A DNA stretch of 64,000 bases from Candidatus Woesearchaeota archaeon (GCA_016181305.1 JACOZN010000005.1:5323-69322); one strand, 5' to 3'. Shown: positions 43,221-57,261, numbered from the stretch's first letter. Notes: generated from the letters alone by a model not told the origin. Numbers and translations: made by a program.

Positions 43221-44327
43221 ATGGTAAGCGTCTGCTTTTATTTCCAGGTTCACCAGCCGCCGAGGCTGAGGAAGTACTCTGTATTCGAGATTGGGCACCA
43301 CAACAATTACTTTGACGAGCGCAAGAACGAGGCGATAATTAAAAAGGTAGCCCACAAATCCTACCTGCCTGCAAACAGAGTTGTTCTTGACCTTATAAAC
43401 AAAACCGACGGAAAGTTCAGGGTTGCATACAGCATGACGGGCATTGTTCTCGAGCAGCTTGAAAGATTTGCGCCTGAAGTTATCGACAGCTTCAGGGAGC
43501 TTGTTAAAACAGGCTGCGTTGAAATCCTTGATGAGACTTACCACCACACGCTTTCATACCTCTACTCGAAAGAGGACTTCAGGGAGCAGGTTTTGCTGCA
43601 CAACAGGAAGATAAGGCAGATGTTCAGCTTCAAGCCAAAGGTTTTCAGGAACACGGAGCTTGTTTATAATAATGACATTGCGGAATTTATCGGGAAAATG
43701 GGCTACAAGGGCATCCTGGCAGAAGGCGCTGACCATATTTTGGGATGGAGAAGCCCGAATTTCGTGTACAGGCCAAAGGGATTGAATAACATAAAGTTGC
43801 TTTTGAAAAATTATCGCTTGTCGGATGACATTGCATTCAGGTTCTCTGAAAAGAGCTGGGAAGAGTTCCCGTTAACCGCTCCAAAATACGCGCAATGGAT
43901 AAACAAAATCAACGGCAACGGCAATGTTGTCAATCTGTTCATGGACTATGAAACCTTTGGCGAGCACCAGTGGGAGGATGCGGTTGCAGAGCTTGATTTC
44001 CCGCATTATGTGAGCTGGGCTGACATTGAGAGGGACCTGAGCGCATGGCTGGGCAACAGGATGCAGCAGGAAGCAATAAGCCAAGTCTACAATTTGGAGC
44101 CTCATGTGAAATTGTCAAAAAATCCAGCCTTGCTTGACGAGTGGAGAAAGCTGCAGACCAGCGACCATTTCTACTACATGTGCACCAAGTGGTTCAATGA
44201 CGGCGACGTGCACAAATACTTCAACCCCTATGACAGCCCTTATGAGGCTTTCATCACTTACATGAACATTTTGAACGACTTCAGGATGAAGGCGAATAAG
44301 CTGGGCGAGGTTAAGGTGGTGGAATAA
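43221..44327 (+). CDS. GH57 alpha-amylase-like protein with apparent internal in-frame deletion
   Basis: FQVHQP, ETYHH, RNTEL (nucleophile), MDYETFGEHQW (acid/base) and LQTSDHFYYM motifs. Confidence 0.93.
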   Translation: MVSVCFYFQVHQPPRLRKYSVFEIGHHNNYFDERKNEAIIKKVAHKSYLPANRVVLDLINKTDGKFRVAYSMTGIVLEQLERFAPEVIDSFRELVKTGCVEILDETYHHTLSYLYSKEDFREQVLLHNRKIRQMFSFKPKVFRNTELVYNNDIAEFIGKMGYKGILAEGADHILGWRSPNFVYRPKGLNNIKLLLKNYRLSDDIAFRFSEKSWEEFPLTAPKYAQWINKINGNGNVVNLFMDYETFGEHQWEDAVAELDFPHYVSWADIERDLSAWLGNRMQQEAISQVYNLEPHVKLSKNPALLDEWRKLQTSDHFYYMCTKWFNDGDVHKYFNPYDSPYEAFITYMNILNDFRMKANKLGEVKVVE

Positions 44328-44334
44328 TCATTTT

Positions 44335-44915
44335 ATGAAAATAACCTCTTTAGAAGCTGCAGTTAAAAGTGGAATAAGCAAAAATCTCATATTCAAAAAA
44401 ATTGCAGGATTAGAAAGAGAATTCTTTCCGAATTACCCGTATAATATAAATGGCATTAAAAAATCCCATAAATTAAGCAATGGGTGCACATTGATTGCAT
44501 TTGACAAAGGCAATGTTATTGGTTACCTAATACCGCTATTCTTTAAAAGCAAGGATTATCTTCAGATATTAACAATTGCAGTTGATAAAAAGCATCATAA
44601 AAAAGGCTATGGAACTGAATTGATTAAAAAATGTGAGCGGATTGCACGTTCTTTAAAATTGAAAAGTGTGATATTGAGGGCAGATGTTTCGTATCCGATA
44701 TTAAAAACATTAAAAAATTAAAATATCGCCCTATGCAAACTATGGACATTAATAATTTTACAAAAGAAGGGATATTCAGCCCTAAAGACGATATTAAAAA
44801 AGAGATTTTTAAATCAAAAATATCTGCTTTATTTCCAAAAGCATATATTATAACCAAGGACATAGGCAAGAAGAGCCATTATTCCTTTATTCCAATGATT
44901 AAAAATATAAAATAA
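44335..44915 (+). pseudogene. GNAT acetyltransferase split by a -1 frameshift in an A-run
   Basis: IAVD..HHKKGYGTEL acetyl-CoA motif. The frame ends TTA AAA AAT TAA, and the -1 frame continues KLKYRPMQTM... to 44915. Confidence 0.75.
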
Positions 44916-44991
44916 TATGCCCAAAAATTATGCGTAAGAACGAAGGCTAAGTTTTCGGTTTAAAGTGAGGCGAAAATTAGAAACGGAGCTT

Positions 44992-45243
44992 TTAGTGCGA
45001 AGAAGGATAGTAAAACTGTTCATCTCCATAAAGAAAACCTTTAGTTCTAGCTTGAATTAAACCTCTCTGTTCTGCTTCTGTAATAGCATCTCTTGCATCT
45101 TTTAAACCTAAAGGATTTTTGCTATCATGTTTTAATCTGGTTTGTTTTGTAAGTTCGAAAAGGTTAAATTCACCAGGTTTTTCATTTACTAAACCAACAA
45201 CATATCCTAAATTCCTTTCCAAAGGACTAACTGTTTCGCTCAT
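44992..45243 (-). CDS. Hypothetical orphan (possible winged helix)
   Basis: 83-aa ORF with upstream TATA; AITEAEQRGLI pattern. Confidence 0.6.
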   Translation of the reverse strand: MSETVSPLERNLGYVVGLVNEKPGEFNLFELTKQTRLKHDSKNPLGLKDARDAITEAEQRGLIQARTKGFLYGDEQFYYPSSH

Positions 45244-45330
45244 ATCAATTGTTATTACTGAATAGTTTATAAAACTTTCGTTTTTGCCACACTTTTCAAC
45301 CCTTTAGTTTCTCGAAGATAACCTTTAGGA

Positions 45331-45444
45331 AAAAATTCCAACAACTTGGCGAGACGAGGCGGGGGTTGTCCCTTACGGGGTGCCGAGTAGGGCAAAATCG
45401 CAGAGATTTTGACCGTCGAAGCCATAGTTGTTGTTGGAATTTTT
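45331..45444. repeat. 114-bp GC-rich branched hairpin element
   Basis: Perfect 15-bp terminal arms AAAAATTCCAACAAC/GTTGTTGGAATTTTT. Inner stems TGGC/GCCA, GACG/CGTC, CCC-TTAC-GGG and CAAAATC/GATTTTG. Confidence 0.75.
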
Positions 45445-45498
45445 GTTTTAATTCTACAAACCAAAACCTTTATATACTAGGTATACTTTAGGTATACC

Positions 45499-45717
45499 AT
45501 GAGGGCAATAACAACAATAAAGCTCCAGAAAAGCACGAAATCGGAATTAAACCATCTCAAGCTCAAGTCTGAAAGCTATAATTCTGCGATAAAAAGGCTG
45601 ATTTCTGATGCAAGGAATTCAAACTTAAAGGCAGAGCTTATTGGGGCTTACAAGTGCATGGGCAAAAAAGATTTAGAGTTCCTTGAAGAGTGGGAGCCTG
45701 CATCCAATGAAGTATAA
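45499..45717 (+). CDS. Putative antitoxin (RHH-like)
   Basis: TTIKL.K.TK..L..LK...ESY...I.RL; overlaps the toxin start by 1 bp. Confidence 0.8.
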   Translation: MRAITTIKLQKSTKSELNHLKLKSESYNSAIKRLISDARNSNLKAELIGAYKCMGKKDLEFLEEWEPASNEV

Positions 45718-46073
45718 TGGCTGAGGTAAAAAGAGGCGACATCTGGCTGGTTAATCTGGACCCAACCATAGGGCATGAAATCAGGAAATCAAGGCCTGCT
45801 GTCATAATCCAAAATGATTTGGGAAACAAATACAGCCCCATAACCATTATAGCGCCGATTACTTCACAAAACATAGAAAAAACCTATCCCATAGAGGTTG
45901 TTTTGGACAGAAAAAACTCTGGCTTGGAAAAGGTTTCAAAGGTCCTTCTCAACCAAATAAGAGCCATAGACAAAAGAAGGCTGATAAGAAAACTGGGCAG
46001 GGTTGATTACGAAACGATGGCAAAGGTAGAAAATTCGATAAAGATTAGTTTAGGGCTTGTAAAAACGGAGTGA
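45717..46073 (+). CDS. mazF: PemK/MazF family toxin
   Basis: RGDIWLVNLDP..G.E..K.RPAVIIQND, APITS and QIRAIDK.RL motifs. Confidence 0.95.
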   Translation: MAEVKRGDIWLVNLDPTIGHEIRKSRPAVIIQNDLGNKYSPITIIAPITSQNIEKTYPIEVVLDRKNSGLEKVSKVLLNQIRAIDKRRLIRKLGRVDYETMAKVENSIKISLGLVKTE

Positions 46074-46123
46074 TAATTTTTAAACCGCAAATCATCGAAA
46101 ATTAAAAATGTGAATTTCCATAA

Positions 46124-46894
46124 TTAAAGCCATTGCCACAAATCTCCAAGCACAAGGAAGTTGCCAATTTCTTTTGTTTGGGGCAAATGCCTCTGAGCTT
46201 TTTCTAAATGACGTTTAGAACTTTCTTGAATTCTTTTTAAATCAAATCGTTTATCATCAAGCATTTGTTGAACTTCTTCTGTTGTATACTCATGCTCTCT
46301 TATGTTAGACCACTCAGGTTTATAATATTCCGTCGGAGATACTCCCTGCGAACCAGCACTTAGAATCACTCTTGCTTTTAACGAGTCTCCGTTTAAAAAT
46401 TTTATAAATCTTCCTGGAGTTTCCCTATCTATTGGGTCTATCCCTACTGCCAAATAGTCTATTCTTACCGCCAAAGGATTGTCATTAGGAGGTAATTTAT
46501 ATATAAAAAATCTGTCTATTGTTCTTTCATCCCTGTACTCATAGCCTTCTCTATGTTCTATATGTATACCACGCTTATCATATTCTCTTGCTCCTTCAAA
46601 ACCGAATGCGTAACTACTAAAACAAGAATGTAAATCATCTAATAATTCATTACTGAAAGGGAACGGACCATACTCTGTCGGTTTTAGAATAAGCGGCTCT
46701 TTTGTGGTAGCTTCTCTGACATATTGTACACAACCAATGACACCTTGAAAATTTGGCTCATTAACTCTAGAAACAACAGTAAATTCAGGATTGAATGGAG
46801 GAACTATGAGCCCTTCTGTAATTGAATTCTTGGAATTATCTCCACCTTTTAATCTCCCTTCTTGTTGAAGTCGTGTTAATAATGTTAGTGTCAT
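46124..46894 (-). CDS. Hypothetical orphan protein
   Basis: 256-aa A/T-rich ORF with upstream TTTAAATA box. Confidence 0.7.
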   Translation of the reverse strand: MTLTLLTRLQQEGRLKGGDNSKNSITEGLIVPPFNPEFTVVSRVNEPNFQGVIGCVQYVREATTKEPLILKPTEYGPFPFSNELLDDLHSCFSSYAFGFEGAREYDKRGIHIEHREGYEYRDERTIDRFFIYKLPPNDNPLAVRIDYLAVGIDPIDRETPGRFIKFLNGDSLKARVILSAGSQGVSPTEYYKPEWSNIREHEYTTEEVQQMLDDKRFDLKRIQESSKRHLEKAQRHLPQTKEIGNFLVLGDLWQWL

Positions 46895-47035
46895 TTTGAA
46901 TTAACCTTTAATACAAGTACGGAAATTAGTTATTTATTTAAATCTTTTGTTTTGTTACTACTAATCGATTATTATCAAACAAAACCGCAAATTATAAATA
47001 TACCAAACAACATAAATCTTAAAAAGAGTGATATA

Positions 47036-47383
47036 ATGGCAAAAAAAAGAGGCAAGACATTTGGTAAAGCTAGTTCTAAGAAGCCACTGCAGTCTGTGGA
47101 GGTTATAATAAGAAAGAAGATTCTCGGGGAGGCTCCTGTGGAGCACCATTTTGTTGTAGCAGACGGAAGGAAAATAAAAAATATAATTGAACTTGCAGAC
47201 GCGCTTGAGACAATGAGCGAGGAGATATTCAGGCACCATGCCAACGAGTTCAAGAACGACTTCAGCTCATGGGTTAAGGATGTCTTTTATGACCACAGCC
47301 TTGCAGAGGACATTTCAAGGGCCAAGAACAGGCTGGAAACCCAGATTGCAGTTTTAAGAAGGCTGGTAAAGGAGCTGATGTAA
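47036..47383 (+). CDS. DUF5752-like protein
   Basis: F.VADG..IKN..ELADALE.M.EE.FRHH.N..KNDFSSWVKDV..D..LA. Confidence 0.75.
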   Translation: MAKKRGKTFGKASSKKPLQSVEVIIRKKILGEAPVEHHFVVADGRKIKNIIELADALETMSEEIFRHHANEFKNDFSSWVKDVFYDHSLAEDISRAKNRLETQIAVLRRLVKELM

Positions 47384-47384
47384 C

Positions 47385-47684
47385 ATGGTGACAAAAGACG
47401 AGGCAAAAAGATACCTGTGCGATGCAGCCCCTGAGCAGTGCTTTTGGATTAATAACGGCCCCATATTGAAAAACATGGAAGAGCTGGCAAATGCGCTGCC
47501 GGACATGGCAGAAGACACCTTCAGGCACCATGTAAACGATGAAAAGAACGACTTCAGCAGCTGGGTCAGGGATGTCATAGGCGACCAGAAGCTCGCAAAC
47601 GAGCTGGCAAGCGCGAAAAACAGGGACTCTGCCCTGAAAAAAATAAGGAACAGGCTTAATTCTTTGAGGAAGAAGGCTGGCTAG
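47385..47684 (+). CDS. DUF5752-like protein (tandem paralogue)
   Basis: FWINNG.ILKN.EELANAL..M.EDTFRHHVN..KNDFSSWVRDV.GD..LA. Confidence 0.75.
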   Translation: MVTKDEAKRYLCDAAPEQCFWINNGPILKNMEELANALPDMAEDTFRHHVNDEKNDFSSWVRDVIGDQKLANELASAKNRDSALKKIRNRLNSLRKKAG

Positions 47685-49004: not shown

Positions 49005-49595
49005 TTAACTCAATTCCGTGATGATTTTTTCGACTTGCCTTTCCAGATGCCCCAAGCCCTTGTTGTTGTCAACCACAAAATCAGCATATTTCAGCTTTTC
49101 ATTTAGCGGCATCTGCGCCTTTAAAATCTTTTCTATTTGCAGCCTTGTGAATCTTTTGTTTCTTTTCAGGATGTTTTCCCTGCTGCATTTTACAACAATG
49201 ACTTTGTCAACCAGATTTTTTGCCTTTGTCTCAAGCAATAAGGGCGCATCAATAATTATTTTTGCATTTTTGCCGCATTTTTTCTGGACTTGCTTAATCT
49301 GATTTTTAATTTCTTCAATAATCGGGGAATGCATGATTGAATCCAGTTTTTTTAATTTATTTTTATCTCTGAATACTGCATTGCCTAATTTTTGCCTGGC
49401 AATATTCTTGTTTTTATCTAAAATGCGGCTTCCAAAATTCCTAACAAGCTCTTTTTGGATTCTTTTGTCTTTTTTCAGTATTTCATGCCCTATCCCGTCG
49501 GCATCAATCCTGCTGTAATGATGCCTGCTGAAAAGTTCTGCAACTGCAGTTTTCCCCGAGCCGACCGAGCCTGTGACGCCTATGATCATATTCAC
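49005..49595 (-). CDS. coaE: Dephospho-CoA kinase, bacterial type
   Basis: IGVTGSVGSGKT, IDAD, DAPLLLE and ADFVVDN motifs. Confidence 0.93.
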   Translation of the reverse strand: MNMIIGVTGSVGSGKTAVAELFSRHHYSRIDADGIGHEILKKDKRIQKELVRNFGSRILDKNKNIARQKLGNAVFRDKNKLKKLDSIMHSPIIEEIKNQIKQVQKKCGKNAKIIIDAPLLLETKAKNLVDKVIVVKCSRENILKRNKRFTRLQIEKILKAQMPLNEKLKYADFVVDNNKGLGHLERQVEKIITELS

Positions 49596-50374
49596 AACAA
49601 GTTTGCAAGCTTCTTTATATCCTTATTGGCAACGTGAGTGTAAATCTGGGTAGTCTGCAGGCTTGAATGCCCGAGCAGTTTCTGGATGTGCCTTATGTCC
49701 GCGCCTGCCTCCAAAAGATGGGTGGCAAAGCTGTGCCTCAAGGTGTGGGGTGTTATTTTCTTTCCGATTCCAGCCCTTTCTGCTGCATTTTTAACAATCA
49801 TCTGGATTGTCCTTTTATCATACTTTTTCCCCAGGTTTGACATGAAGGCAAAGCTTTCTTTTTTAATGCCCAGGTATTCAATGAAATCCTTTAGCTTGCC
49901 ATGCAGGAAGATTATTCGTTCCTTCCCGCCTTTTGCTATCTTAAGGTGAATAACATCCCTTTGAAAGTCAATGTCTTCCCATTTCAGGCTCACTATCTCG
50001 TTAAGCCTTATGCCCGTGTAATATAGAAACATCAGGACTAACCTATGCTTTAGGTTTAATGTTGCCTGAAGCATCTTGCTTATTTCCTCTTTGCTCAGGA
50101 CTACTGGAAGCTTGCCTTTGTTTTTTGCAAGAGGTATTGTCTCATCGAACTTCTGCCTCAAAACATTCTCGTAAAAGAATTTCAGCGCGAAATACACGCT
50201 CCTTATGCTGGAGCGGCTTTTATCGGCATACCCAAGCAAAAACTCCCTCGGCTGAAGCCCAGACTCAATGAACTTCCTTATTATCAATGCATAAGCCTTT
50301 TCAGTCTGCCTTGAGTGCTTCCTCAGCCTCAGCTCTTCAGACAGCTTATTAAGGTAAACATGCGCATCTTCCAT
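49592..50374 (-). CDS. Xer-like tyrosine recombinase
   Basis: Catalytic R (TGIR), K (AKGGK), HTLRHS, LGH and Y (TTQIYTHV). 260 aa, without the IntI-specific insertion. Confidence 0.95.
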   Translation of the reverse strand: MEDAHVYLNKLSEELRLRKHSRQTEKAYALIIRKFIESGLQPREFLLGYADKSRSSIRSVYFALKFFYENVLRQKFDETIPLAKNKGKLPVVLSKEEISKMLQATLNLKHRLVLMFLYYTGIRLNEIVSLKWEDIDFQRDVIHLKIAKGGKERIIFLHGKLKDFIEYLGIKKESFAFMSNLGKKYDKRTIQMIVKNAAERAGIGKKITPHTLRHSFATHLLEAGADIRHIQKLLGHSSLQTTQIYTHVANKDIKKLANLL

Positions 50375-50396
50375 AAAGCTAATGAATAACTATAAG

Positions 50397-50412
50397 TATA
50401 TAAAAACTTCGC
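50397..50412 (-). promoter_or_regulatory. BRE-TATA promoter of the recombinase
   Basis: Minus strand GCGAAG-TTTTTATATA about 23 bp before ATG 50374. Confidence 0.65.
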
Positions 50413-50423
50413 TTTAACATATC

Positions 50424-50468
50424 TAACACCTATTAAACAGCAATTAAAACTGCGTTTAATAGTTGTTA
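50424..50468. repeat. Imperfect palindrome, candidate recombination (att/dif-like) site
   Basis: TAACA-C-CTATTAAAC-A-GCA-loop-TGC-GTTTAATAG-T-TGTTA; each arm is TAA-N6-TTA. Confidence 0.65.
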
Positions 50469-50599
50469 AAATCAATTATTACTCGGGGCACACGACGAAA
50501 CGGAGGGGGCACACTCACTACGTTGATACGAACTTTATACATTTATTAGGAGAAATTGAGGCGAAAAGTTTATATATCTGTTGTATATACACTGGCTAT

Positions 50600-50860
50600 A
50601 TGACAACCGAAATGATTACTCTAAAGCTTGATGATATGTTCTTGAAAGAGATAGACTCTATTGTGGAGAAACAGGGTTATCATAACAGGACAGAATTTAT
50701 CAGAAATGCACTTAGAGAGAAAGTAGAAGATACAAAAATAAAGGATGCAATGATACAAATTGCCCACTTGAAGGGCGCTTCCAAGAAGAAAACAAGTGAT
50801 GCAGACCTTGAGAAGATTAGGGAAAAAGTTTTCAATGAATTAGACAAAAAAGTTAGATAA
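50600..50860 (+). CDS. Ribbon-helix-helix (CopG/NikR-like) protein, putative antitoxin
   Basis: ITLKLD..FL.EID.IV...GY.NRTEFIRNALREK pattern. Confidence 0.9.
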   Translation: MTTEMITLKLDDMFLKEIDSIVEKQGYHNRTEFIRNALREKVEDTKIKDAMIQIAHLKGASKKKTSDADLEKIREKVFNELDKKVR

Positions 50861-51269
50861 GATCTTCTGGTTTGTGATGTTTTGATACATCTTCCAGCTT
50901 TCTGAAATGTCTGTCTCTTGTTACAAGGATTAAGTCGTTGTCTCTTGCTATTATAACGTGCAAAGCATCTCCAGCAGGAACATCTCTTTCCTTTGCAATT
51001 TTTTTGGCTTCTTCTCGCTGTTTTTCTGTAGCAATAATCTTTTTTATAATTTTTTCAAAAGGCTTAAACATTCCATTGATTTCTGCAACTGAATAAAGTG
51101 TCTCAAGTTCTTTTATAAGAAAATCGGTAAGCACAATAGCACTTTCTTTTGCTTTTATTTTGACAAGCAGCTTAAAGGCGTAATCGCCTAGTGGCTCATT
51201 GTTATAGCCTTTCCTATCTTCATAAAGATCAACCCAAATTGAAGTGTCTATTATGTATTCTTCTGCCAT
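50853..51269 (-). CDS. PIN domain (VapC-like) toxin
   Basis: YIIDTS.W, IKEL, GDALH and LVTRDRHF motifs; start at MAEEYII. Confidence 0.9.
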   Translation of the reverse strand: MAEEYIIDTSIWVDLYEDRKGYNNEPLGDYAFKLLVKIKAKESAIVLTDFLIKELETLYSVAEINGMFKPFEKIIKKIIATEKQREEAKKIAKERDVPAGDALHVIIARDNDLILVTRDRHFRKLEDVSKHHKPEDLI

Positions 51270-51390
51270 AGTAAGCAAGTGATTGTATGGGTATTTATAA
51301 TTTACTAGTTCTTTGACGTGAAAAACCATAGCAAAGTTTTTATATGTACATTTAGGTTTTCGTATATGGGGTTGGTAAATAAAGCTCAAA

Positions 51391-53733
51391 ATGGTTAAAG
51401 GCTATTGTAAGTATTGTTTGTCTGGAAAAAAGGAAGAAGTAGAACAATGTCCCCATTGTCAAAAACATTTTTGTAGTGAGCATATTACTCCAATAGAGCC
51501 TGGTTCTTATCGTCCAGAAAAATCTCGCATATTTATTAATCAAATAAGACTAGGTCATGAAAATACTCATCCATGTCCTGATTATGTTGATTACTTAGAA
51601 GAACAAAAAACAATTCACGGCAAAAAATATGGAGAAGCATTAGACAAATTATTAGGTAGTACTCCAAAGTATAAACTTCCTTTATCGGAAAGACAAGAAA
51701 TAAGGGATACAAGGCATAATATTGCTAAAGAAAATGAAGAATTTAATAAAAGTGTTAATGCTAAGCTTGAGGTGGATATTCAAAGAAGAAAAGAGGATAA
51801 AATTAAACGTAAAGAACTAGAAAAAGAGAAACATAGACAAGAGATTGAAGAAAAGGAGAGACTTAGTAGGGAGATAGAGGAAAAACAAAAAAAGCATTTG
51901 AAAAAACAAGAAAAAGATGAGCCTTACCTTTACAGGTATATTTCGCCAGAAGAGAGAAAATCCAATCAACCACCAAAAGTACCTGAAAAATATAAAAAAG
52001 AGCATGTAGGGACAGCACACCATCATCATGAAACACCCAAGGAAGAAACTGCAAAAGAAAAATATTATAAAAAAGAAGAATCTGGCATTTTTTCAAAGTT
52101 AAAAATTAATAGAAAGAATTTTTATGTGGTTGGCACAATAATTTTATTATTACTTGTCGGATTATTCTATGGGACCTCAGCCAAAACTATAATTCAAGAA
52201 ATCAAGAATGTATCCAATACAAAAACTATAAGCTCTTACGAAAATATCTCAAATAAAATCTCATTTTCTAACTATCTTAATGATATTTATGCATTTGATA
52301 AACAAGAAGTTACATTAAATGGTTTTCTTGAAAGAAGCGTTGAAGGAGATGGCAATGCTGGAGTTCATGTATTTTCAATTGTAGATGACTACAACAATAG
52401 AGTTGTATTGGAATGGTCTTATAATAACTTAAAAAAATATTTACCAGATTTGGGAAAAACAAAAGAATTGTATTCTGTTCAAGGAATTTTTAAGAGAGAA
52501 TACAAGACTTTAAAATTAAATGTCGAAAACATAAATATCTATAAAAGAGAACCAGCTAAACAAGTAGAAGTAAACAATATAGTAAGCTATACTGAGCAAA
52601 TTACTATAAACAGAACAAGTCCAAAGTATCCTTTGGTTAGAAATTTGGTTTTTAAACTCATAGGTAAAGAAATTATTTGCGAGGATGGTACAAAAATTGA
52701 TTCTTGTTCTAATGAAAAACCACTATACTGCTCTATTAATGGACTAAAAGAAGAACCAGCAAAGTGTGGATGTCCTTCAGGCAAAAGATTGTACCAAAAT
52801 CAATGCATAAATGAAGTCAAATGCTCAGATGGAACTTATGAGCCAGAATGTTCAAAAAATAAACCAAAACAATGCGTGAATGGGAAACTTGTTGACAATC
52901 CAGAAGTATGTAACTGTCCAGAAAACTATAAAGTAAAAGATAAAAAATGTGTTTATATCAGATGTTCTGATGGAACTATCGAGCCAGATTGTTCTGCAAA
53001 AATGAAGATGCAATGTATGGAAGGCAATTTTATTTATAATCCAAATAAATGTGGTTGCCCAGATGGTTATGTCAAAAGAGGAAATAATTGTGTAAAAACT
53101 TGCAGCGATGGAACTGCGTATGACGAATGCTCTGATGATATGCCTCTTTATTGTGATAATGATGCATTAATAAACAAAGCGTCAATTTGTGGTTGCCCTT
53201 CTGGTTCTGGCTCAAAATATAAACAATCAGGAGAACTATGTTTAGATTTGTCAAATCCAGATATAGAGTATATAGAAGAAAAAGTTCATGAACTAATAAA
53301 CCTACAAAGGCAAACAAATGGACTGTCAAAATTATCCTATGACACAAAACTTGTACAAATTGCAAGAGCCCATAGCCAAGATATGGCTACAAATGACTTC
53401 TTTTCCCACGACAATTTACGTGGGGAAGACCCAACCGATAGAGCAAGTAAAGTAGGCTATAATTGCAGAAAAGATTATGGTTCATATTATACAAACGGTA
53501 TTGCAGAAAATATTCACCAAGGTTGGACATATGGAACAACATGGTATACAAATGGTGTTGAATCTAGTAAGGAGTGGTTAATGCCTGACGAAATATCAGA
53601 AAGTGCTGTTACTGGATGGATGAACAGCCCAGGTCATCGCAAAAATATACTAACAAACACGTATGATAAAGAGGGAATAGGCGTAGCAGTAGCATCAAAT
53701 GGTGCTGTTTACATTACGCAAGATTTTTGTTAA
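51391..53733 (+). CDS. Multidomain membrane protein: AN1-like Zn finger, charged helix, TM, Cys-rich repeats, CAP/SCP domain
   Basis: CKYC..CPHC..FC.EH....H.C, then a TM and four C(S/E)DGT repeats. The C-terminus has ARAHSQDM, AENI, WMNSPGHRKNIL and TQDF. Confidence 0.9.
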   Translation: MVKGYCKYCLSGKKEEVEQCPHCQKHFCSEHITPIEPGSYRPEKSRIFINQIRLGHENTHPCPDYVDYLEEQKTIHGKKYGEALDKLLGSTPKYKLPLSERQEIRDTRHNIAKENEEFNKSVNAKLEVDIQRRKEDKIKRKELEKEKHRQEIEEKERLSREIEEKQKKHLKKQEKDEPYLYRYISPEERKSNQPPKVPEKYKKEHVGTAHHHHETPKEETAKEKYYKKEESGIFSKLKINRKNFYVVGTIILLLLVGLFYGTSAKTIIQEIKNVSNTKTISSYENISNKISFSNYLNDIYAFDKQEVTLNGFLERSVEGDGNAGVHVFSIVDDYNNRVVLEWSYNNLKKYLPDLGKTKELYSVQGIFKREYKTLKLNVENINIYKREPAKQVEVNNIVSYTEQITINRTSPKYPLVRNLVFKLIGKEIICEDGTKIDSCSNEKPLYCSINGLKEEPAKCGCPSGKRLYQNQCINEVKCSDGTYEPECSKNKPKQCVNGKLVDNPEVCNCPENYKVKDKKCVYIRCSDGTIEPDCSAKMKMQCMEGNFIYNPNKCGCPDGYVKRGNNCVKTCSDGTAYDECSDDMPLYCDNDALINKASICGCPSGSGSKYKQSGELCLDLSNPDIEYIEEKVHELINLQRQTNGLSKLSYDTKLVQIARAHSQDMATNDFFSHDNLRGEDPTDRASKVGYNCRKDYGSYYTNGIAENIHQGWTYGTTWYTNGVESSKEWLMPDEISESAVTGWMNSPGHRKNILTNTYDKEGIGVAVASNGAVYITQDFC

Positions 53734-53891
53734 TATTAAAATTTATCACCCGATTACTACTACTTTTAACTTGAGTGTGCCCCTTAATTCTCATCCTTGA
53801 CGTATCGCTGTCGCTCATTTGATTGGACGAACGAGTGTCCCGAGTAATAACTTTTCGGGCGAAATTTTACCCCACTTCGTAGGGTAAAAGA

Positions 53892-54067
53892 GATTAACAA
53901 GAATTAGGCGGTTCGCAGGGTCGCTTACGCTAAAACGCCAAGCGTTTTCCCCTGCTCTCCCAAATTTTTGCCAGCTCTGAAAAATTCTCCATCTCTGAAG
54001 TTTGTGGGTTGCCTCAAACTTCGAGGGGAATTTTTCGAGGGCAAAAACTTCGCCTAATAAGTTAGTT
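53892..54067. repeat. Long structured palindrome at the right border of the cargo
   Basis: GATTAAC..ATTAGGCG ... CGCCTAAT..GTTAGTT enclose stems TTTTTGCC/GGCAAAAA, GAAAAATTCTCC/GGGGAATTTTTC and GAAGTTTG/CAAACTTC. Confidence 0.75.
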
Positions 54068-54112
54068 TCAATAATTTTTAGTGGCTAAACGACTGATAGG
54101 GGGACATTCCGC

Positions 54113-55174
54113 TCATTCCACAATATTCCCGGTGTGGCTTTCAACTGCAGGCAATTGCGGAGGCACGACTTTTCCATAGAACACACGCACCGTTTTATCA
54201 TTTATCTTTAAGACAGAGGGGTCATATACATTATCTTCCTGAAAAACAGGCATTGGCTCGCCGAAATCAAGCCCGTCAGATGATTCCACATAATAGATTC
54301 CTTTGGGAACTTTAGCAAATCCTTCATCTATAGAGGCTGCAAAAAGCACGTATTTATCGGCGATTCTGGCCAATGCTGGATCAACGAGATTTGGAACCCT
54401 GATTCCTGCTTCTTTTGCAAAATTAAGCCCATCAGAGGATACAGCTGATCCGATCCCGTGCTGCATTCCTGATGCCGTCACATAGTATATCCTTACTCGG
54501 CCGTCCGGAAGCATTATGGCATCTGGAACAGAAGCCCAGCCATTGTCGCCGTTAGTCTCTGAATCTATCCTAAGCCCCTCTTTTTCGAAAGTCAAGCCAT
54601 CTGAAGATACTGCAGAATAAATTTTGTGTATAGACTGTCCGGGCCCGGGGTTCTGGCTATTCGCGCCCTTGTAGTACATCCTAATTTTTCCGCCCGGAAG
54701 ATTTACGATAGTCGGATCGCAGACGATGAATTCAAATCCTGCTCCTGGGGAGATTCTTATGCCCTGCTCTTTTGCAAAAGTCAGTCCGTCATTGGAAATC
54801 GCAGACAATATCCCTTTGATGTTGCAGTAGTACAGGCGAACTTTTCCATCCTTCAAGCCATGCACAAAAGGAACAGACCCGTCTGCAATTCTTGAGCCGC
54901 CGTCTTTCTCCCAGGAAAAAGACAATGCTTCTGCAGCCGGTTCTGTCGGCATATTGTTAATTTCAGGGATTAAATCCTGGGGTGTTTCAGAAACGGATTC
55001 CGGTTCAGCCTCGGAGTTTGACGGGAAACCTTGCTGCAAACCTCCGGCAACCCCGGCTTCCCCATCCCGCTCAGCTTCCTCCTGCGCTTCTTTGAAATCG
55101 GCAGACTCCTGAGCAGCGCAGCCAGAAATAATAATAGCAAAAACCAGCATAAACAACACAGCCTCTTTTTTCAT
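54113..55174 (-). CDS. Lipoprotein with beta-propeller glycoside hydrolase-like (Asp-box) domain
   Basis: Lipobox-like IISGC, acidic linker, and repeated DP....R.YY...SA.S.DGL.F blades. Confidence 0.8.
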   Translation of the reverse strand: MKKEAVLFMLVFAIIISGCAAQESADFKEAQEEAERDGEAGVAGGLQQGFPSNSEAEPESVSETPQDLIPEINNMPTEPAAEALSFSWEKDGGSRIADGSVPFVHGLKDGKVRLYYCNIKGILSAISNDGLTFAKEQGIRISPGAGFEFIVCDPTIVNLPGGKIRMYYKGANSQNPGPGQSIHKIYSAVSSDGLTFEKEGLRIDSETNGDNGWASVPDAIMLPDGRVRIYYVTASGMQHGIGSAVSSDGLNFAKEAGIRVPNLVDPALARIADKYVLFAASIDEGFAKVPKGIYYVESSDGLDFGEPMPVFQEDNVYDPSVLKINDKTVRVFYGKVVPPQLPAVESHTGNIVE

Positions 55175-55248
55175 TATTCTGGCACCCCATTATGTTATAT
55201 TTAAATCTTTTCAAAATCTTTATAAACCCCAATACTTATACCGCATCT

Positions 55249-55707
55249 ATGGCAAAACAGATTTTTGTGAATTTGCCGGTAAAGGACCTAGACAAAACAA
55301 TAGAATTCTTTACTAAACTGGGCTTCGATTTCAACCCCAAATTCACAGATAAAAACGCAACATGCATGATTATCGGCGAAAACATATTCGCAATGCTGTT
55401 AGTTGAAAAATTTTTCAGGACATTTATCCCCAACAAGGGAATTTCTGACGCTAAAAAAAGCACAGAAGTGCTTGTTGCACTGGCAGTTGAAAGCAGGGCA
55501 AAAGTTGACGGGATGGTAAATAAGGCAATAGAAGCCGGCGGCAAAGAATACAGGACAGCGCAAGACCATGGATGGATGTACGGGCGGGCTTTCGAGGATT
55601 TGGACGGGCATGTCTGGGAAGTGTTTTACATGGATGAAAGCAAAATGCCGGAAGAGATGAAAAGTAAAGACAATAAAAATGAACAAGAAGAATTCAATAA
55701 CGCTTAA
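55249..55707 (+). CDS. VOC/glyoxalase family protein
   Basis: IFVNLPVKDL...FF..LGF and MYGRAFEDLDGHVWE motifs. Confidence 0.93.
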   Translation: MAKQIFVNLPVKDLDKTIEFFTKLGFDFNPKFTDKNATCMIIGENIFAMLLVEKFFRTFIPNKGISDAKKSTEVLVALAVESRAKVDGMVNKAIEAGGKEYRTAQDHGWMYGRAFEDLDGHVWEVFYMDESKMPEEMKSKDNKNEQEEFNNA

Positions 55708-56092
55708 ATCCCAACACATCACTATTTCAATTAATCGCTCTGCGAATGACGTTTACGAATTCACTTCAAATCCCGAGAATCTTCCAAAATGGGCAGCAGG
55801 TCTTAGCGGTTCTATAAAAAACATTAAAGGCGACTGGATTGCTGAATCTCCGATGGGAACCATCAAAATTAAATTCGCTGAAAAAAATAAATTCGGCATT
55901 CTGGACCATGATGTCATTTTGCCGTCAGGCGAGAAAATCTATAACCCGATGCGCGTATTTCCCAACAACGATGGCAGCGAATTAGTCTTCACACTGTATC
56001 AAAGGTCAGATATGTCAGACAAACTGTTTGAAGATGATGCTAAGCTGGTCAAAAGGGATATTGAAAAGTTAAAGAAATTGCTTGATAAATAA
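55679..56092 (+). CDS. SRPBCC/polyketide cyclase-like protein
   Basis: VYEF.SNPENLPKWAAGL, GILDHDV and NPMRV motifs. Confidence 0.88.
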   Translation: MNKKNSITLKSQHITISINRSANDVYEFTSNPENLPKWAAGLSGSIKNIKGDWIAESPMGTIKIKFAEKNKFGILDHDVILPSGEKIYNPMRVFPNNDGSELVFTLYQRSDMSDKLFEDDAKLVKRDIEKLKKLLDK

Positions 56093-56182
56093 GGAGAAAC
56101 GATCATGAAAATTAAACTAACCCTTAGTACTAACATTTATATATCCAATCCGCAATTTACATTTATTCGGGGGTAGAACATT

Positions 56183-56541
56183 ATGGCTTATTTCAAAACA
56201 AAATATGTCTCATGCTTGGGTTCATGAAACTGCTCGGGTTGTGGGGCATGCCTGGCGGTGCTGCTGCTTTCGGGACTTTGGTTTGGTATGCCGGCGTTTT
56301 TGAGCTGATGATTGGATTATCCATGCTGACTGGAGTATTAGTTCGGCTTGCATCCGCCTTTGGCATAGTCATGATGATTGTTGCTTACTACTTGGGGCAT
56401 GTTAAGGTAGGCGGCTGGAATCCGCTTGTTAACTTTGGAATGCCTGCCATCATATTCCTGCTTGCATTCTTAGTCACATTAGCTTACGGCGCAGGAAAAG
56501 CCAGTCTGGAAAAAATAGCCTTTAAAAAAGAATTTTTCTGA
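56183..56541 (+). pseudogene. DoxX-family membrane protein with 5' frameshift/deletion
   Basis: ATG 56183 (MAYFKTKY..) is out of frame with 56212-56541 (G..KL.G, AGVFEL..GL...TG..R.A, YGAGK.SLE). The start of the first helix is missing. Confidence 0.7.
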
Positions 56542-56586
56542 GTTTTTTTGTTTTAATTTTTATTTAAATGCAGCTTTAATCTGCAT

Positions 56587-57261
56587 CTATGAACTTAGGC
56601 TGTTTACAAATGCTGAAACTTCACTTTCATTTTGAAGAACAACGACTTCCAAGTTTGGAAACTCCTCATTTTTAGGAATTTCCTGGGTTCTATGGATAAG
56701 ATGTATAACCCTTTCATCGACTATTTCTCTTTTCTGTGTGTTCCTGCTGTGTCTTTTCAAAGAAACGTCCAAGCCAAGGTTCAGATAAACCAGCATTTTT
56801 TTAGTTTCATCCAAACCTAAATTAAATCCCATTATTTCCGCCATTTCTGATAGGCTCTCAAATAACATTCTTCTCCTTACCCTATCGTGCAGGAGTGATT
56901 CTATAACAGGAATTTCACCACCTATATGCGATAATTCCGATACTATATAAGAATTTACAGCTTGTTGAAAAAGCTGATTCCAGAATGTCTTGCCATCCTT
57001 ACCGACTGCTGTAATTACGGCGTACTTTAGTTTATTTAAATCCCTTTTGCCAGCCGACGGAGTGCTAATTCCAAATTGCTGCAGTATAGCCGGGTAGAAC
57101 TTCTGAAGAGACTCAAAAAATTTCTCTGGCTCTTCTTCAAGTTTGTCATGTATTGAATCTATTCCAAGAATCTTATATTTAGGGTTTCTTTGTTTTATTG
57201 CATCGCATAAGTAACTCTTTCCTGAATAGGGTATACCTCCAACAAGCATTAAATTTTCCAT
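56587..57261 (-). CDS. P-loop kinase-like orphan
   Basis: N-terminal GIPYSGKS Walker A and an R..RN lid. Confidence 0.7.
   Translation of the reverse strand: MENLMLVGGIPYSGKSYLCDAIKQRNPKYKILGIDSIHDKLEEEPEKFFESLQKFYPAILQQFGISTPSAGKRDLNKLKYAVITAVGKDGKTFWNQLFQQAVNSYIVSELSHIGGEIPVIESLLHDRVRRRMLFESLSEMAEIMGFNLGLDETKKMLVYLNLGLDVSLKRHSRNTQKREIVDERVIHLIHRTQEIPKNEEFPNLEVVVLQNESEVSAFVNSLSS

What the first reader, a model, noticed from the sequence alone, without database searches (positions are those of the whole stretch)
49592..54067. Xer-like recombinase with hairpin att sites and an inverted-repeat-bounded cargo: integron-like or pdif-like module system in an archaeon
Seen in sequence: the recombinase points away from the cargo, as intI does. 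About 50 bp upstream of it lies a palindrome whose arms are each TAA-N6-TTA, with one spacer mismatch and one extrahelical base when folded. An overlapping third core (TAA-AATCAA-TTA, 50467-50478) ends exactly where the 19-bp left inverted repeat starts. After the matching right repeat there is another core (TAA-CAAGAA-TTA, 53895-53906) opening a long hairpin. The cargo is A/T-rich and holds RHH, PIN and a surface protein. Established: Xer/dif sites are inverted arms around a 6-bp spacer, and integron attC and CTXphi attP recombine as folded ssDNA. Inference: a cassette capture or exchange locus run by a non-IntI tyrosine recombinase. Short TAA-N6-TTA cores can arise by chance in A/T-rich DNA.
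Basis: partly seen in the sequence, partly recalled or inferred. Interest (0 to 1): 0.75.

Follow-up and report, generated by a model that had tools for sequence, protein, structure and literature searches.

The report
Archaeal Xer-linked gene-cassette platform
A small archaeon carries a Xer-type recombinase gene with its own palindromic DNA site next to a stack of swappable defence-gene cassettes separated by a conserved folded spacer, which looks like an integron built from different parts.

Summary
Comparison with relatives shows it is one instance of a conserved system.

- **Recombinase (REC).** The 260-aa protein is a divergent XerA paralogue, not IntI. A canonical XerA lies elsewhere in the same genome.
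- **Palindrome (P1).** It sits about 50 nt upstream of REC. It is a core-type site with 11-12-bp arms and a 7-10-bp spacer, and it is kept upstream of REC orthologues across DPANN lineages.
- **Cargo.** The 3,373-nt RHH-PIN-CAP segment is a cassette bounded base-for-base by inverted repeats, inserted at AGT^ATTG with no target duplication.
- **Junction module (J).** Distal to the cassette lies a conserved multi-hairpin module with strong compensatory variation. It was found in 76 of 151 sampled genomes of the order.
- **Arrays.** In better assemblies, including a complete 710-kb Pacearchaeota genome, J modules form same-orientation arrays that point at the recombinase. They separate R-M, toxin-antitoxin and unknown cassettes.
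- **Mobility.** A metagenome contig shows the exact empty site. The same cassettes occur in other contexts, with one breakpoint in the P1 spacer.

My best reading is an integron-analogous cassette platform run by a Xer-family enzyme. Catalysis, the strand or state of the sites, and the role of the repeats are all inferred.

The parts
49592..50374 (-). REC, a 260-aa XerA-family tyrosine recombinase. Its stop codon abuts or overlaps the coaE start.
   Evidence: Pfam PF00589 E 3.1e-44. Best solved relatives are XerA 4a8e (1.6e-40) and 5hxy (2.4e-39), with the R/K/HxxR/H/Y positions aligned. NCBIfam XerA_Arch 210.6 bits, below the cut-off of 220.
50396..50418 (-). BRE/TATA-like promoter box conserved upstream of REC orthologues.
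   Evidence: The same box follows the palindrome in 11 of 11 orthologue loci that hold at least 100 nt of upstream sequence. In G036 the same box drives coaE directly. That it is a promoter is inferred.
50424..50468 (.). P1, a core-type palindrome and the proposed primary recombination site.
   Evidence: Conserved with changes on both arms in relatives. Unique in the window's own genome. A cassette shared by G035 and G036:C7 has its homology breakpoint at the proximal-arm/spacer edge.
50465..50476 (-). Conserved box ATTG-N5-AAC (read on the minus strand) that always follows a cassette's end.
50477..53849 (.). Cassette of 3,373 nt, bounded base-for-base by inverted repeats.
   Evidence: Inverted repeat. 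A metagenome contig joins 50476 directly to 53850. The end carrying RHH-PIN is 86% identical over 802 nt to a 2.66-kb cassette in G002:C100 that has a different middle gene.
50477..50494 (+). Terminal inverted repeat, REC-proximal copy. An inner repeat lies at 50505-50518.
   Evidence: The same two-box end lies next to the ATTG box in 7 loci of other genomes.
53832..53849 (-). Terminal inverted repeat, distal copy. An inner repeat lies at 53762-53773.
50600..50860 (+). RHH (CopG-type) protein, a likely antitoxin.
   Evidence: PF01402 E 1.9e-7.
50853..51263 (-). PIN-domain protein, a likely toxin.
   Evidence: PF01850 E 1.7e-9.
51391..53733 (+). 780-aa protein with an N-terminal Cys-rich region, a transmembrane segment, Cys-rich repeats and a C-terminal CAP/YkwD domain.
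   Evidence: PF00188 E 4.9e-18. TIGR02909 E 3.2e-23. Translation.
53745..53849 (-). Conserved cassette-end module of about 100 nt, just inside the distal repeat.
   Evidence: Aligned in 6 genomes with unrelated outer flanks. nhmmer hits.
53850..53905 (-). J core: GTTA box (53890-53898), hairpin 1 (53865-53889), hairpin 2 (53853-53864), ending ...AAAAGT.
   Evidence: Found in 29 of 43 genus genomes by DNA search. Covariation. Covariance model hits in 76 of 151 genomes of the order.
53906..54072 (-).
   Evidence: Consensus fold of 10 sequences. A variant with this part replaced by 16 letters occurs in run X4.
54073..54125 (-). Distal terminus of the array, also conserved at the distal end of the G036 array.
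   Evidence: Read by eye. Not tested statistically.
54113..57261 (.). Five further ORFs: a 353-aa protein, a 171-aa protein, a 137-aa protein, a 109-aa membrane protein and a 224-aa protein. They belong to the same 7.7-kb insertion relative to G036 and G001.
   Evidence: In G036 and G001, Lhr and coaE lie 0.9-1.0 kb apart, and none of these ORFs nor REC is found between them.

Best explanation
REC is a specialised XerA paralogue. Together with its core-type site P1, directly upstream of its own promoter, it anchors a cassette platform.

**Layout.** Distal to P1, accessory genes (mostly anti-phage defence and toxin-antitoxin) are stacked as cassettes. Each cassette runs from one perfect terminal inverted repeat to its partner and sits exactly between ...AGT and ATTG-N5-AAC. 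Successive cassettes are separated by a junction module, J. J consists of an ATTG-N5-AAC box, a centre of 4 to about 200 nt that is often a hairpin, a GTTA box and two hairpins. All J modules point towards REC.

**Proposed mechanism.** REC recombines P1 with J-type sites, and J with J. This inserts, excises and swaps units. P1 plays the part of attI, a sequence-defined double-stranded site. J plays the part of attC, where the structure is conserved and the sequence is free. The window's RHH-PIN-CAP segment is a single cassette in an array of length one.

**Shown by computation:**
- the architecture and its conservation;
- compensatory variation in J;
- a presence/absence polymorphism at the repeat boundaries;
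- re-use of cassettes in other contexts, with a breakpoint in the P1 spacer.

**Inferred:**
- that REC is the catalyst;
- that J is a recombination site rather than an RNA;
- circular intermediates;
- any single-strand folding;
- what the terminal repeats do.
For: **1. Site next to gene.**
- The P1 HMM hits upstream of REC orthologues in 55 of 80 loci from Woese-, Pace-, Aenigmat-, Iain- and Micrarchaeota, DHVE2 and Thermoplasmata.
- The arms change on both sides and stay complementary.

**2. Variable cargo.**
- Six of six longer orthologue loci carry different genes beyond P1.
- Thirty-four of 80 loci have REC starting within 350 nt of a contig end.

**3. Arrays pointing at the recombinase.**
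- G067, a complete genome of 710,724 bp, has 3 of 3 J HMM hits within 11.6 kb upstream of REC and co-oriented with it. Six repeat-bounded cassettes of 545-1,541 nt tile that stretch.
- The same arrangement occurs in G036, G001, G006, G038 and G044.
- It also occurs in G109, G140 (a single contig) and G141, which is 3 of 5 further genomes checked.

**4. J is under structural selection.**
- 95.4% of cells are paired, against 78.1% in shuffles.
- 59 double-change cells are seen, against 18.2 expected.
- 0 of 500 shuffles reach the observed values, and all slid controls are far lower.

**5. Mobility.**
- An exact empty-site contig joins 50476 to 53850.
- A G035 cassette is 94% identical over 881 nt to one in G036:C7. 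Homology starts in the P1 spacer and ends in a J variant.
- The window's cassette end recurs in G002:C100.

**6. Boundary rule.** Seven of 20 J sites tested have a repeat partner scoring above the shuffled maximum, and all 7 partners are followed by the TTG-N5-AAC box.

**7. REC is neither the housekeeping XerA nor IntI**.
Against: - No enzyme activity, binding or circular product has been shown.
- At whole-genome level, the 161-nt J query is no commoner where REC was found. It hits 7 of 12 genus genomes with REC and 16 of 24 without (cross-tabulated). Every genome also has another XerA-family gene that could do the work.
- Several J-bearing loci have no recombinase within about 10 kb. These include G016, G021, G033, G010, G002:C10, G018, G012 and the window's own genome at C21. 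In G116 the five-J array sits on a different contig from the only recombinase hit.
- REC and its array behave as one inserted island. G001 has 19.7 kb between SMC and its neighbour, and the window has 7.7 kb between coaE and Lhr. This also fits an ordinary integrative island.
- The terminal repeats differ in sequence from cassette to cassette, and there are no direct repeats at cassette ends. Classical conservative recombination at the cassette boundaries themselves is therefore unlikely.
- The empty-site contig has only 21 letters on its shorter side, and its depth of 31.9 against about 11 shows it comes from a different strain.
- G.T versus A.C mismatches in J stems number 11 against 5. This does not settle which strand, if any, folds.
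Confidence: 0.58

Rival explanations
1. REC/P1 is a chromosome-dimer resolution system with its site next to the gene, on the XerS/difSL pattern. The neighbouring cassettes are then hitch-hikers that exploit it (IMEX-like), or simply a recombination-prone variable region.
For: - P1 has the anatomy of a dif site.
- There is one P1 in the window's own genome.
- REC orthologues keep 57-67% identity across phylum-level lineages.
- The abstract of PMC2731167 says XerS is genetically linked to its dif-like motif (listing).
- Tandem IMEX arrays at dif are known in Vibrio (recalled).
Against: - A second gene in the same genome passes the XerA equivalog cut-off, 268.2 against 220, and REC does not.
- Full-length REC at 62% identity or more was found in only 12 of 36 other genus genomes.
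- Its 3' neighbour differs within the genus: coaE, RIO kinase, metallophosphoesterase, SMC or folD.
- In complete genome G067, REC at 324 kb lies at neither of the gene-strand switch points, near 100 kb and 400 kb. GC skew gave no clear terminus, so this is weak evidence.
- J modules lack P1-type arms.
Confidence: 0.17
2. The locus is an ordinary integrated genomic island whose own integrase (REC) sits at one end. J modules and repeat-bounded segments are nested relics, MITE-like, with no ongoing cassette exchange.
For: - Comparison of G001 with the window's genome, and of the window with G036 and G001, shows REC plus array present or absent as one block.
- Second integrase genes lie inside the arrays of G001 and G035.
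Against: - No direct repeats or tRNA target are seen at the island ends.
- The J arrays are co-oriented and tile with cassettes.
- J is conserved with compensatory changes in 72 of 144 genera sampled.
- G036 keeps a J remnant, a cassette, half of P1 and the promoter at the coaE locus even without REC.
- No relative of REC worth the name was found in viral contigs. There were 2 weak partial matches, and 0 of 68 pattern hits were true J.
Confidence: 0.12
3. J is a structured non-coding RNA, either regulatory or a guide or scaffold for recombination, or the repeat-bounded cassettes are moved by an unidentified enzyme acting on structure. In this reading REC is only a neighbour.
For: - The long form has a multi-helix fold of about 240 nt with conserved loops and covarying stems.
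- The terminal repeats have arbitrary sequence, which fits recognition of structure.
- J occurs away from any recombinase gene.
Against: - No Rfam family matches.
- J's position and orientation relative to XerA-family genes is repeated in 10 genomes.
- No other conserved enzyme gene recurs in the arrays.
Confidence: 0.1
4. The inverted repeats mark an invertible segment (an inverton or shufflon) that REC flips.
For: Inverted repeats flank the segment next to a tyrosine recombinase gene.
Against: - The repeat sequences differ between cassettes.
- The same cassette has the same internal orientation relative to J in the window and in G002:C100.
- No strand-changing joints were listed among the laid contigs.
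Confidence: 0.03

Closest known systems
Integrons (IntI, attI, attC cassette arrays), including the archaeal integrons and IntI-less attC clusters of Ghaly et al. 2022 (PMC9668308)
   Same: - A tyrosine recombinase gene faces away from a primary site, beyond which lies an array of accessory-gene cassettes.
- The cassettes are separated by repeated sites that keep their structure more than their sequence.
- Read outward from REC, each junction shows an ...AAC box, a hairpin-capable centre and a GTTA... box. This recalls the inverse-core and core boxes of attC. The consensus is recalled, so the resemblance is a lead only.
- That paper's Data S1 and S3 list attC clusters with 2-4 attCs and 0 IntI in Woesearchaeales and Pacearchaeales MAGs (rows seen).
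   Different: - REC lacks the IntI-specific domain. Its match to the integron-integrase model is split and below cut-off.
- The junction carries two extra hairpins.
- Cassettes are bounded by their own perfect inverted repeats.
- Cassettes often hold several genes and their own promoter-like boxes.
- One mapped breakpoint lies in the P1 spacer rather than at a G/TT step.
- Arrays are short, with 1 to about 8 cassettes.
Single-recombinase Xer systems with the site beside the gene (XerS/difSL; XerH/difH) and archaeal XerA/dif
   Same: - REC is closest to XerA.
- P1 has inverted arms of about 11 bp around a short spacer.
- P1 lies next to the gene, as the abstract of PMC2731167 states for XerS.
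   Different: - In Thermococcales, dif is not next to xerA (passage of PMC2958812).
- The genome has a separate canonical XerA.
- The genomic context of REC is not conserved within the genus.
- A cassette array adjoins the site.
pdif (dif) modules of Acinetobacter plasmids
   Same: Small modules carry toxin-antitoxin or other accessory genes, have no transposase and no target duplication, are bounded by inverted sequences, and are shuffled between contexts, presumably by host Xer enzymes. I saw abstracts only: PMC6449649 and PMC13141974.
   Different: - There, the inverted boundaries are the shared Xer sites themselves, in alternating orientation.
- Here, the boundaries are cassette-specific repeats, and the conserved junctions all face the same way.
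IMEX elements at dif (CTXphi, TLCphi)
   Same: Elements stack in tandem beside a Xer site, and some use folded single-stranded sites (recalled; abstracts).
   Different: The cassettes here have no replication or morphogenesis genes and share a common junction module. No viral counterpart was found.
   Same: It describes a hairpin-plus-palindrome 'entry site' heading defence loci next to a conserved Xer-type recombinase, with integron-like arrays.
   Different: It concerns another domain of life. It is an unchecked AI note and I did not test it.

Membership tests
Integron | An integrase carrying the IntI-specific additional domain around patch III | tested here: not met
   TIGR02249 scores 184.4 bits against a cut-off of 265, matched in 2 stretches. 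PRK15417 scores 123.9 against 435. PDB IntI4 2a3v also matches in 2 stretches.
Integron | Canonical attC sites between cassettes | not testable with these tools
   Neither IntegronFinder/HattCI nor an attC model is on hand. The AAC...GTTA flanks around a hairpin centre are suggestive only.
Integron | A primary site beside the integrase gene, with an array of cassettes beyond it | tested here: met
XerA (archaeal chromosome-dimer resolvase) | The sequence passes the curated equivalog model | tested here: not met
   NF040815 scores 210.6 against a cut-off of 220 for REC. The paralogue on C12 scores 268.2.
XerA (archaeal chromosome-dimer resolvase) | A single dif site at the replication terminus | tested here: inconclusive
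   P1 is unique in the window's own genome. In complete genome G067, GC skew gave no terminus, and REC lies at neither gene-strand switch point.
Tyrosine recombinase superfamily | The catalytic fold and the R-K-H-R-H/W-Y residues | tested here: met
   PF00589 E 3.1e-44. The alignment to 4a8e covers the conserved motifs.
pdif modules | Modules bounded by Xer sites in alternating inverse orientation | tested here: not met
   J modules are co-oriented, and the terminal repeats are cassette-specific.
TIR (DDE-type) transposon or MITE | A target-site duplication and a family-wide terminal repeat sequence | tested here: not met
   The empty site reads AGT^ATTG with no duplication. The repeats differ between cassettes.
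Inverton / shufflon | Both orientations of the segment are observed | tested here: not met
   The orientation is the same in two genomes. No strand-switch joints were listed. Contigs cannot exclude rare forms.

The most novel reading that the evidence does not exclude
DPANN archaea, and perhaps CPR bacteria, run an independently evolved integron-equivalent. In it a minimal XerA-type enzyme recognises folded DNA, or a J-derived RNA scaffold, rather than sequence. The perfect terminal repeats clamp each cassette's junction into a recombination-competent structure. This would also explain why most archaeal 'integrons' reported so far are attC clusters with no IntI.
Probability: 0.2. Interest if true: 0.95.

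Novelty: new variant of a known kind. Interest (0 to 1): 0.86.

Why it matters
**Biology.** Integrons are the textbook gene-capture device. They are defined by one enzyme family (IntI) and one site type (attC).
- A second, structurally different solution, built on a Xer-family enzyme and widespread in ultra-small archaea, would show that cassette platforms evolved more than once.
- It would give a mechanism for how genome-reduced symbionts keep a fluid anti-virus arsenal.
- It might assign an enzyme to the IntI-less attC clusters reported in archaea.

**Practical uses.**
- The J and P1 signatures mark defence islands in DPANN genomes.
- They explain a systematic class of assembly breaks in these MAGs.
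- A 260-aa recombinase with a simple site may be useful as a tool.

Tried and rejected
- **tRNA or ncRNA integration target.** The window holds 0 tRNA genes. There are 0 Rfam matches at gathering score, and only 7 chance-level matches at E up to 10 in 50300-54200.
- **Copies in the window's own genome.** blastn-short and a 3-mismatch scan found no further copy of the terminal repeat or of the P1 palindrome. A second J core does exist, at C21.
It is not enriched.
- **The 12-nt repeat motif across the genus.** With 1 mismatch allowed, counts were at control level. Only the extended contexts of the exact hits were informative.
- **Target-site duplication or direct repeats.** None were found at cassette or island ends.
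- **GC skew of complete genome G067.** It rises monotonically and shows no terminus.
- **Viral collection.** The J pattern gave 68 hits, of which 0 passed the covariance model. REC gave 2 weak partial matches.
- **Expression.** No RNA holder was listed among the sequencing runs.
- **Strand of folding.** G.T versus A.C counts were 11 against 5, which is undecided.
- **Inverton reading.** Rejected, as set out under rivals.
- **Literature.** Searches for this system found no description of a Xer-linked cassette array in archaea. PDF supplements of PMC2958812 and bioRxiv supplements could not be seen.

Full report
**What is in the window**

REC (49592-50374, minus strand) is a 260-aa tyrosine recombinase, with Pfam PF00589 at E 3.1e-44. 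Its stop codon abuts the start of coaE, which is followed by coaD. rpoK- and S17e-like ORFs, named from their translations, mark the organism as an archaeon. The nearest named relative, with REC at 94% identity and the same coaD-coaE-REC order, is a Candidatus Woesearchaeota MAG.

Upstream of REC, in order, lie:
- a promoter-like box (50396-50418);
- a palindrome, P1 (50424-50468, 15-nt arms, 93% complementary);
- a conserved box that reads ATTG-N5-AAC on the minus strand (50465-50476);
- a 3,373-nt A/T-rich segment (50477-53849), with GC 0.27-0.36 against 0.40-0.49 in the flanks.

That segment encodes an RHH protein, a PIN protein and a 780-aa membrane protein with a CAP domain. It begins and ends with an inverted repeat that matches at 17 of 19 positions, and it has a second inner repeat pair.

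No tRNA gene and no Rfam family is present. P1 folds far better than shuffles (z -5.6).

**The recombinase**

- REC's best solved relatives are archaeal XerA: 4a8e at 1.6e-40 and 5hxy at 2.4e-39. The catalytic motifs are aligned.
- IntI4 matches only in two stretches.
- On NCBIfam's XerA equivalog model, REC scores 210.6 bits against a cut-off of 220. A paralogue on contig C12, 42% identical to REC, scores 268.2.
- The integron-integrase model is matched in two pieces and below cut-off.
- The genome holds three PF00589 genes in all.

REC is therefore a divergent XerA paralogue. It is neither the housekeeping enzyme nor an IntI.

**P1 is a conserved site that travels with the gene**

- In 12 same-genus genomes with REC at 62-94% identity, the palindrome and the promoter-like box recur wherever upstream sequence exists. 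Three of these loci show changes on both arms.
- Orthologues at 47-51% identity in other families have 12-bp arms around 7-8-nt spacers.
- Among 80 loci from a one-genome-per-species collection (57-94% identity; Woese-, Pace-, Aenigmat-, Iain-, Micr- and Nanohaloarchaeota, DHVE2, Thermoplasmata), a P1 HMM hits upstream of the gene in 55. The commonest form has 11-bp arms with a 9-nt spacer about 80 nt before the start codon.
- The canonical XerA paralogue has no such palindrome.
- P1 occurs once in the window's own genome.

**The cargo side is variable and breaks assemblies**

- Downstream of REC lie housekeeping genes that differ among species of one genus: coaE, RIO kinase-HAD, metallophosphoesterase-HIT, SMC or folD.
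- Upstream of P1 the gene content is different in all six of the longer loci:
  - an Eco57I-type methylase with a BsuBI/PstI endonuclease;
  - Tsp45I with a methylase;
  - a type I R-M system;
  - GmrSD with an EcoRI methylase and a second integrase;
  - ORFs of unknown function with a second integrase;
  - a PPDK_N-domain protein.
- In 6 of the 12 genus relatives the contig stops within about 160 nt of REC's start. The same holds within 350 nt for 34 of the 80 wider loci.

**The junction module J**

The sequence distal to the window's cassette is not unique to this genome.
- A 161-nt query (53745-53905) matches in 29 of 43 genus genomes.
- The part outside the cassette (53850-53905) is a module made of a GTTA box, hairpin 1 (a 7-8-bp stem with a conserved 9-nt loop) and hairpin 2, ending ...AGT.
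- On 28 copies, 95.4% of cells pair, against 78.1% in shuffles. There are 59 double-change cells against 18.2 expected. None of 500 shuffles reach these values, and slid controls pair only 34-61% of cells.
- Upstream of the GTTA box lies a 'centre' of variable length, preceded by another ATTG-N5-AAC box. The centre is 4-13 nt in short forms. In the window's long form it is about 165 nt (53906-54066) and folds into a multi-helix structure. Over the whole 244-nt module, 31 of 49 predicted pairs have compensatory changes.
- A covariance model of the J core finds it in 76 of 151 genomes drawn evenly from the order, and in 72 of 144 genera. Among genomes at least 90% complete it is found in 61 of 115. 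One of the 76 is the unpublished genome G175.

**Arrays**

J modules occur in same-strand series that point at a XerA-family gene.
- G036 has three J modules, then a type I R-M system, then P1 and REC.
- G001 has two J modules 12-16 kb from REC.
- G006 has three J modules upstream of a recombinase 35-38% identical to REC.
- G038 and G044 each have a J 0.6-1.1 kb upstream of REC.
- G109, G140 (one contig of 1.1 Mb) and G141 each have a J 2-9 kb upstream of, and co-oriented with, the recombinase. That is 3 of 5 further genomes checked.
- The complete Pacearchaeota genome G067 (710,724 bp) has only two tyrosine recombinase genes. All 3 J HMM hits lie within 11.6 kb upstream of the REC orthologue.

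**Cassette rule**

In G067 six cassettes of 545-1,541 nt tile the stretch upstream of REC. Each is a perfect inverted repeat from its first base to its last, preceded by ...AGT and followed by ATTG-N5-AAC. Five have an exact 11-mer repeat and one has a single mismatch. The genome-wide background of exact pairs is 24 on the plus strand and 12 on the minus strand.

In the genus, 7 of 20 J sites had a repeat partner above the shuffled maximum, and all 7 partners were followed by the box. The repeat sequences differ from cassette to cassette.

Cassettes carry type I, II and III R-M systems, GmrSD, HEPN, MazE-PIN, RHH-PIN, DUF2283 pairs, a Cas4-like nuclease, a helicase and many small ORFs of unknown function. 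Many start with a promoter-like box.

**Evidence of movement**

1. Contigs of four groundwater metagenome runs were laid on the locus. One contig joins 50476 directly to 53850, which is the exact repeat-to-repeat empty site. It has depth 31.9 and only 21 letters on its shorter side, so it is a relative's allele and weak on its own. Summed depth peaks over the P1 and J modules and falls to about 11 inside the cassette. Variants replace the long centre, or the P1 palindrome, by 16 letters. A back-joint links 53899 to 50466 with 4 letters between.
2. The cassette next to P1 in G035 is 94% identical over 881 nt to one in G036:C7. There it follows a RelE/RHH pair and no recombinase. Homology starts at the edge of the P1 spacer and ends in a J variant.
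3. The window's cassette end with RHH-PIN is 86% identical over 802 nt to a 2.66-kb cassette in G002:C100. That cassette has the same repeats and box but another middle gene and another J.
4. Whole islands differ between genomes:
   - G001 has 19.7 kb (REC, P1, cassettes, J) between SMC and its neighbour, where the window's genome has 105 nt.
   - The window has 7.7 kb (49592 to about 57300) between coaE and Lhr, where G036 and G001 have 0.9-1.0 kb.
   - In G036 that short stretch still holds a J remnant, one small cassette, half of P1 and the REC-type promoter, now driving coaE.

**Interpretation**

The simplest account is a recombinase-anchored cassette platform. P1 is the sequence-defined primary site. 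J is a structure-conserved secondary site. Cassettes are exchanged at these sites.

The logic is that of an integron, but the membership tests fail. There is no IntI domain, the junction architecture is different, the cassettes have their own repeats, and the one mapped breakpoint lies in the P1 spacer.

Read outward from REC, each junction shows an ...AAC box, a hairpin-capable centre and a GTTA box. This recalls attC boxes (recalled consensus; a lead only). Ghaly et al. 2022 report IntI-less attC clusters in Woesearchaeales and Pacearchaeales MAGs (passages; supplement rows). Whether those calls coincide with P1 or J could not be tested here.

**What argues for caution**

- No activity has been shown.
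- J is as frequent in genus genomes where REC was not found (16 of 24) as where it was (7 of 12).
- Several J loci have no recombinase nearby. One is the window's own genome at C21, where a 7.9-kb R-M cassette sits just upstream of a promoter and a 5S rRNA-like gene.
- REC and its array also behave as one island.
- The purpose of the perfect, sequence-free terminal repeats is unexplained. They argue for recognition of structure rather than sequence, but neither the strand nor the state (DNA or RNA) is settled.

**Literature**

- Cortez et al. 2010 (passages) state that Thermococcales dif sites are not next to xerA.
- The 2021 review of archaeal tyrosine recombinases (passages) does not mention DPANN.
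- Six full-text searches gave no description of this system.

Noticed in passing
Own genome C21:23483-31471 (locus L199:1484-9472): A second J core lies here, with a long-form centre. It is followed by a 7.9-kb repeat-bounded cassette holding an N6/N4 methylase, a ResIII helicase, a ParB_N/GmrSD-like protein and ORFs of unknown function. The cassette ends just upstream of a promoter-like box and a 5S rRNA-like sequence. No recombinase gene is nearby.
   Followed up: partly
window 44200-47000: This is another A/T-rich stretch (GC 0.30-0.37). It holds a MazF/PemK-like ORF (45717-46073, named from its translation) and a 256-aa ORF of unknown function. It may be a separate accessory islet.
   Followed up: no
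G006:C4 (L112:1436-1492) and several genomes: A 19-aa remnant of the REC C-terminus (89% identical) lies just downstream of a different recombinase in G006. C-terminal-only REC fragments (about aa 180-260) occur in G003, G033, G008, G023, G044 and G038. This hints at replacement or partial duplication of the recombinase gene.
   Followed up: no
table (canonical XerA paralogues): The canonical XerA-type genes of many relatives also start within about 50-300 nt of a contig start, although no P1-like palindrome was seen upstream of them.
   Followed up: partly
window 51391-53733: The 780-aa cargo protein combines an N-terminal CxxC-rich segment, a long Lys/Glu-rich stretch, one transmembrane segment, four Cys-rich repeats and a CAP/YkwD domain. 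This is an unusual architecture for a DPANN surface protein.
   Followed up: no
Own genome C15:197047: A weak partial look-alike of the P1 left half (3 mismatches in 16), followed by a short palindrome. It may be a degenerate second site or a chance match.
   Followed up: no
G036:C3 (L105:12321-12417) and G036:C7 (L116:9063-9159): A 97-nt stretch is 99% identical between the two array-bearing loci of the same genome.
   Followed up: no
window 46952-47684: Two adjacent paralogous small ORFs (143 and 99 aa) cross-match each other at 42-52% identity. They are conserved next to rpoK in relatives.
   Followed up: no
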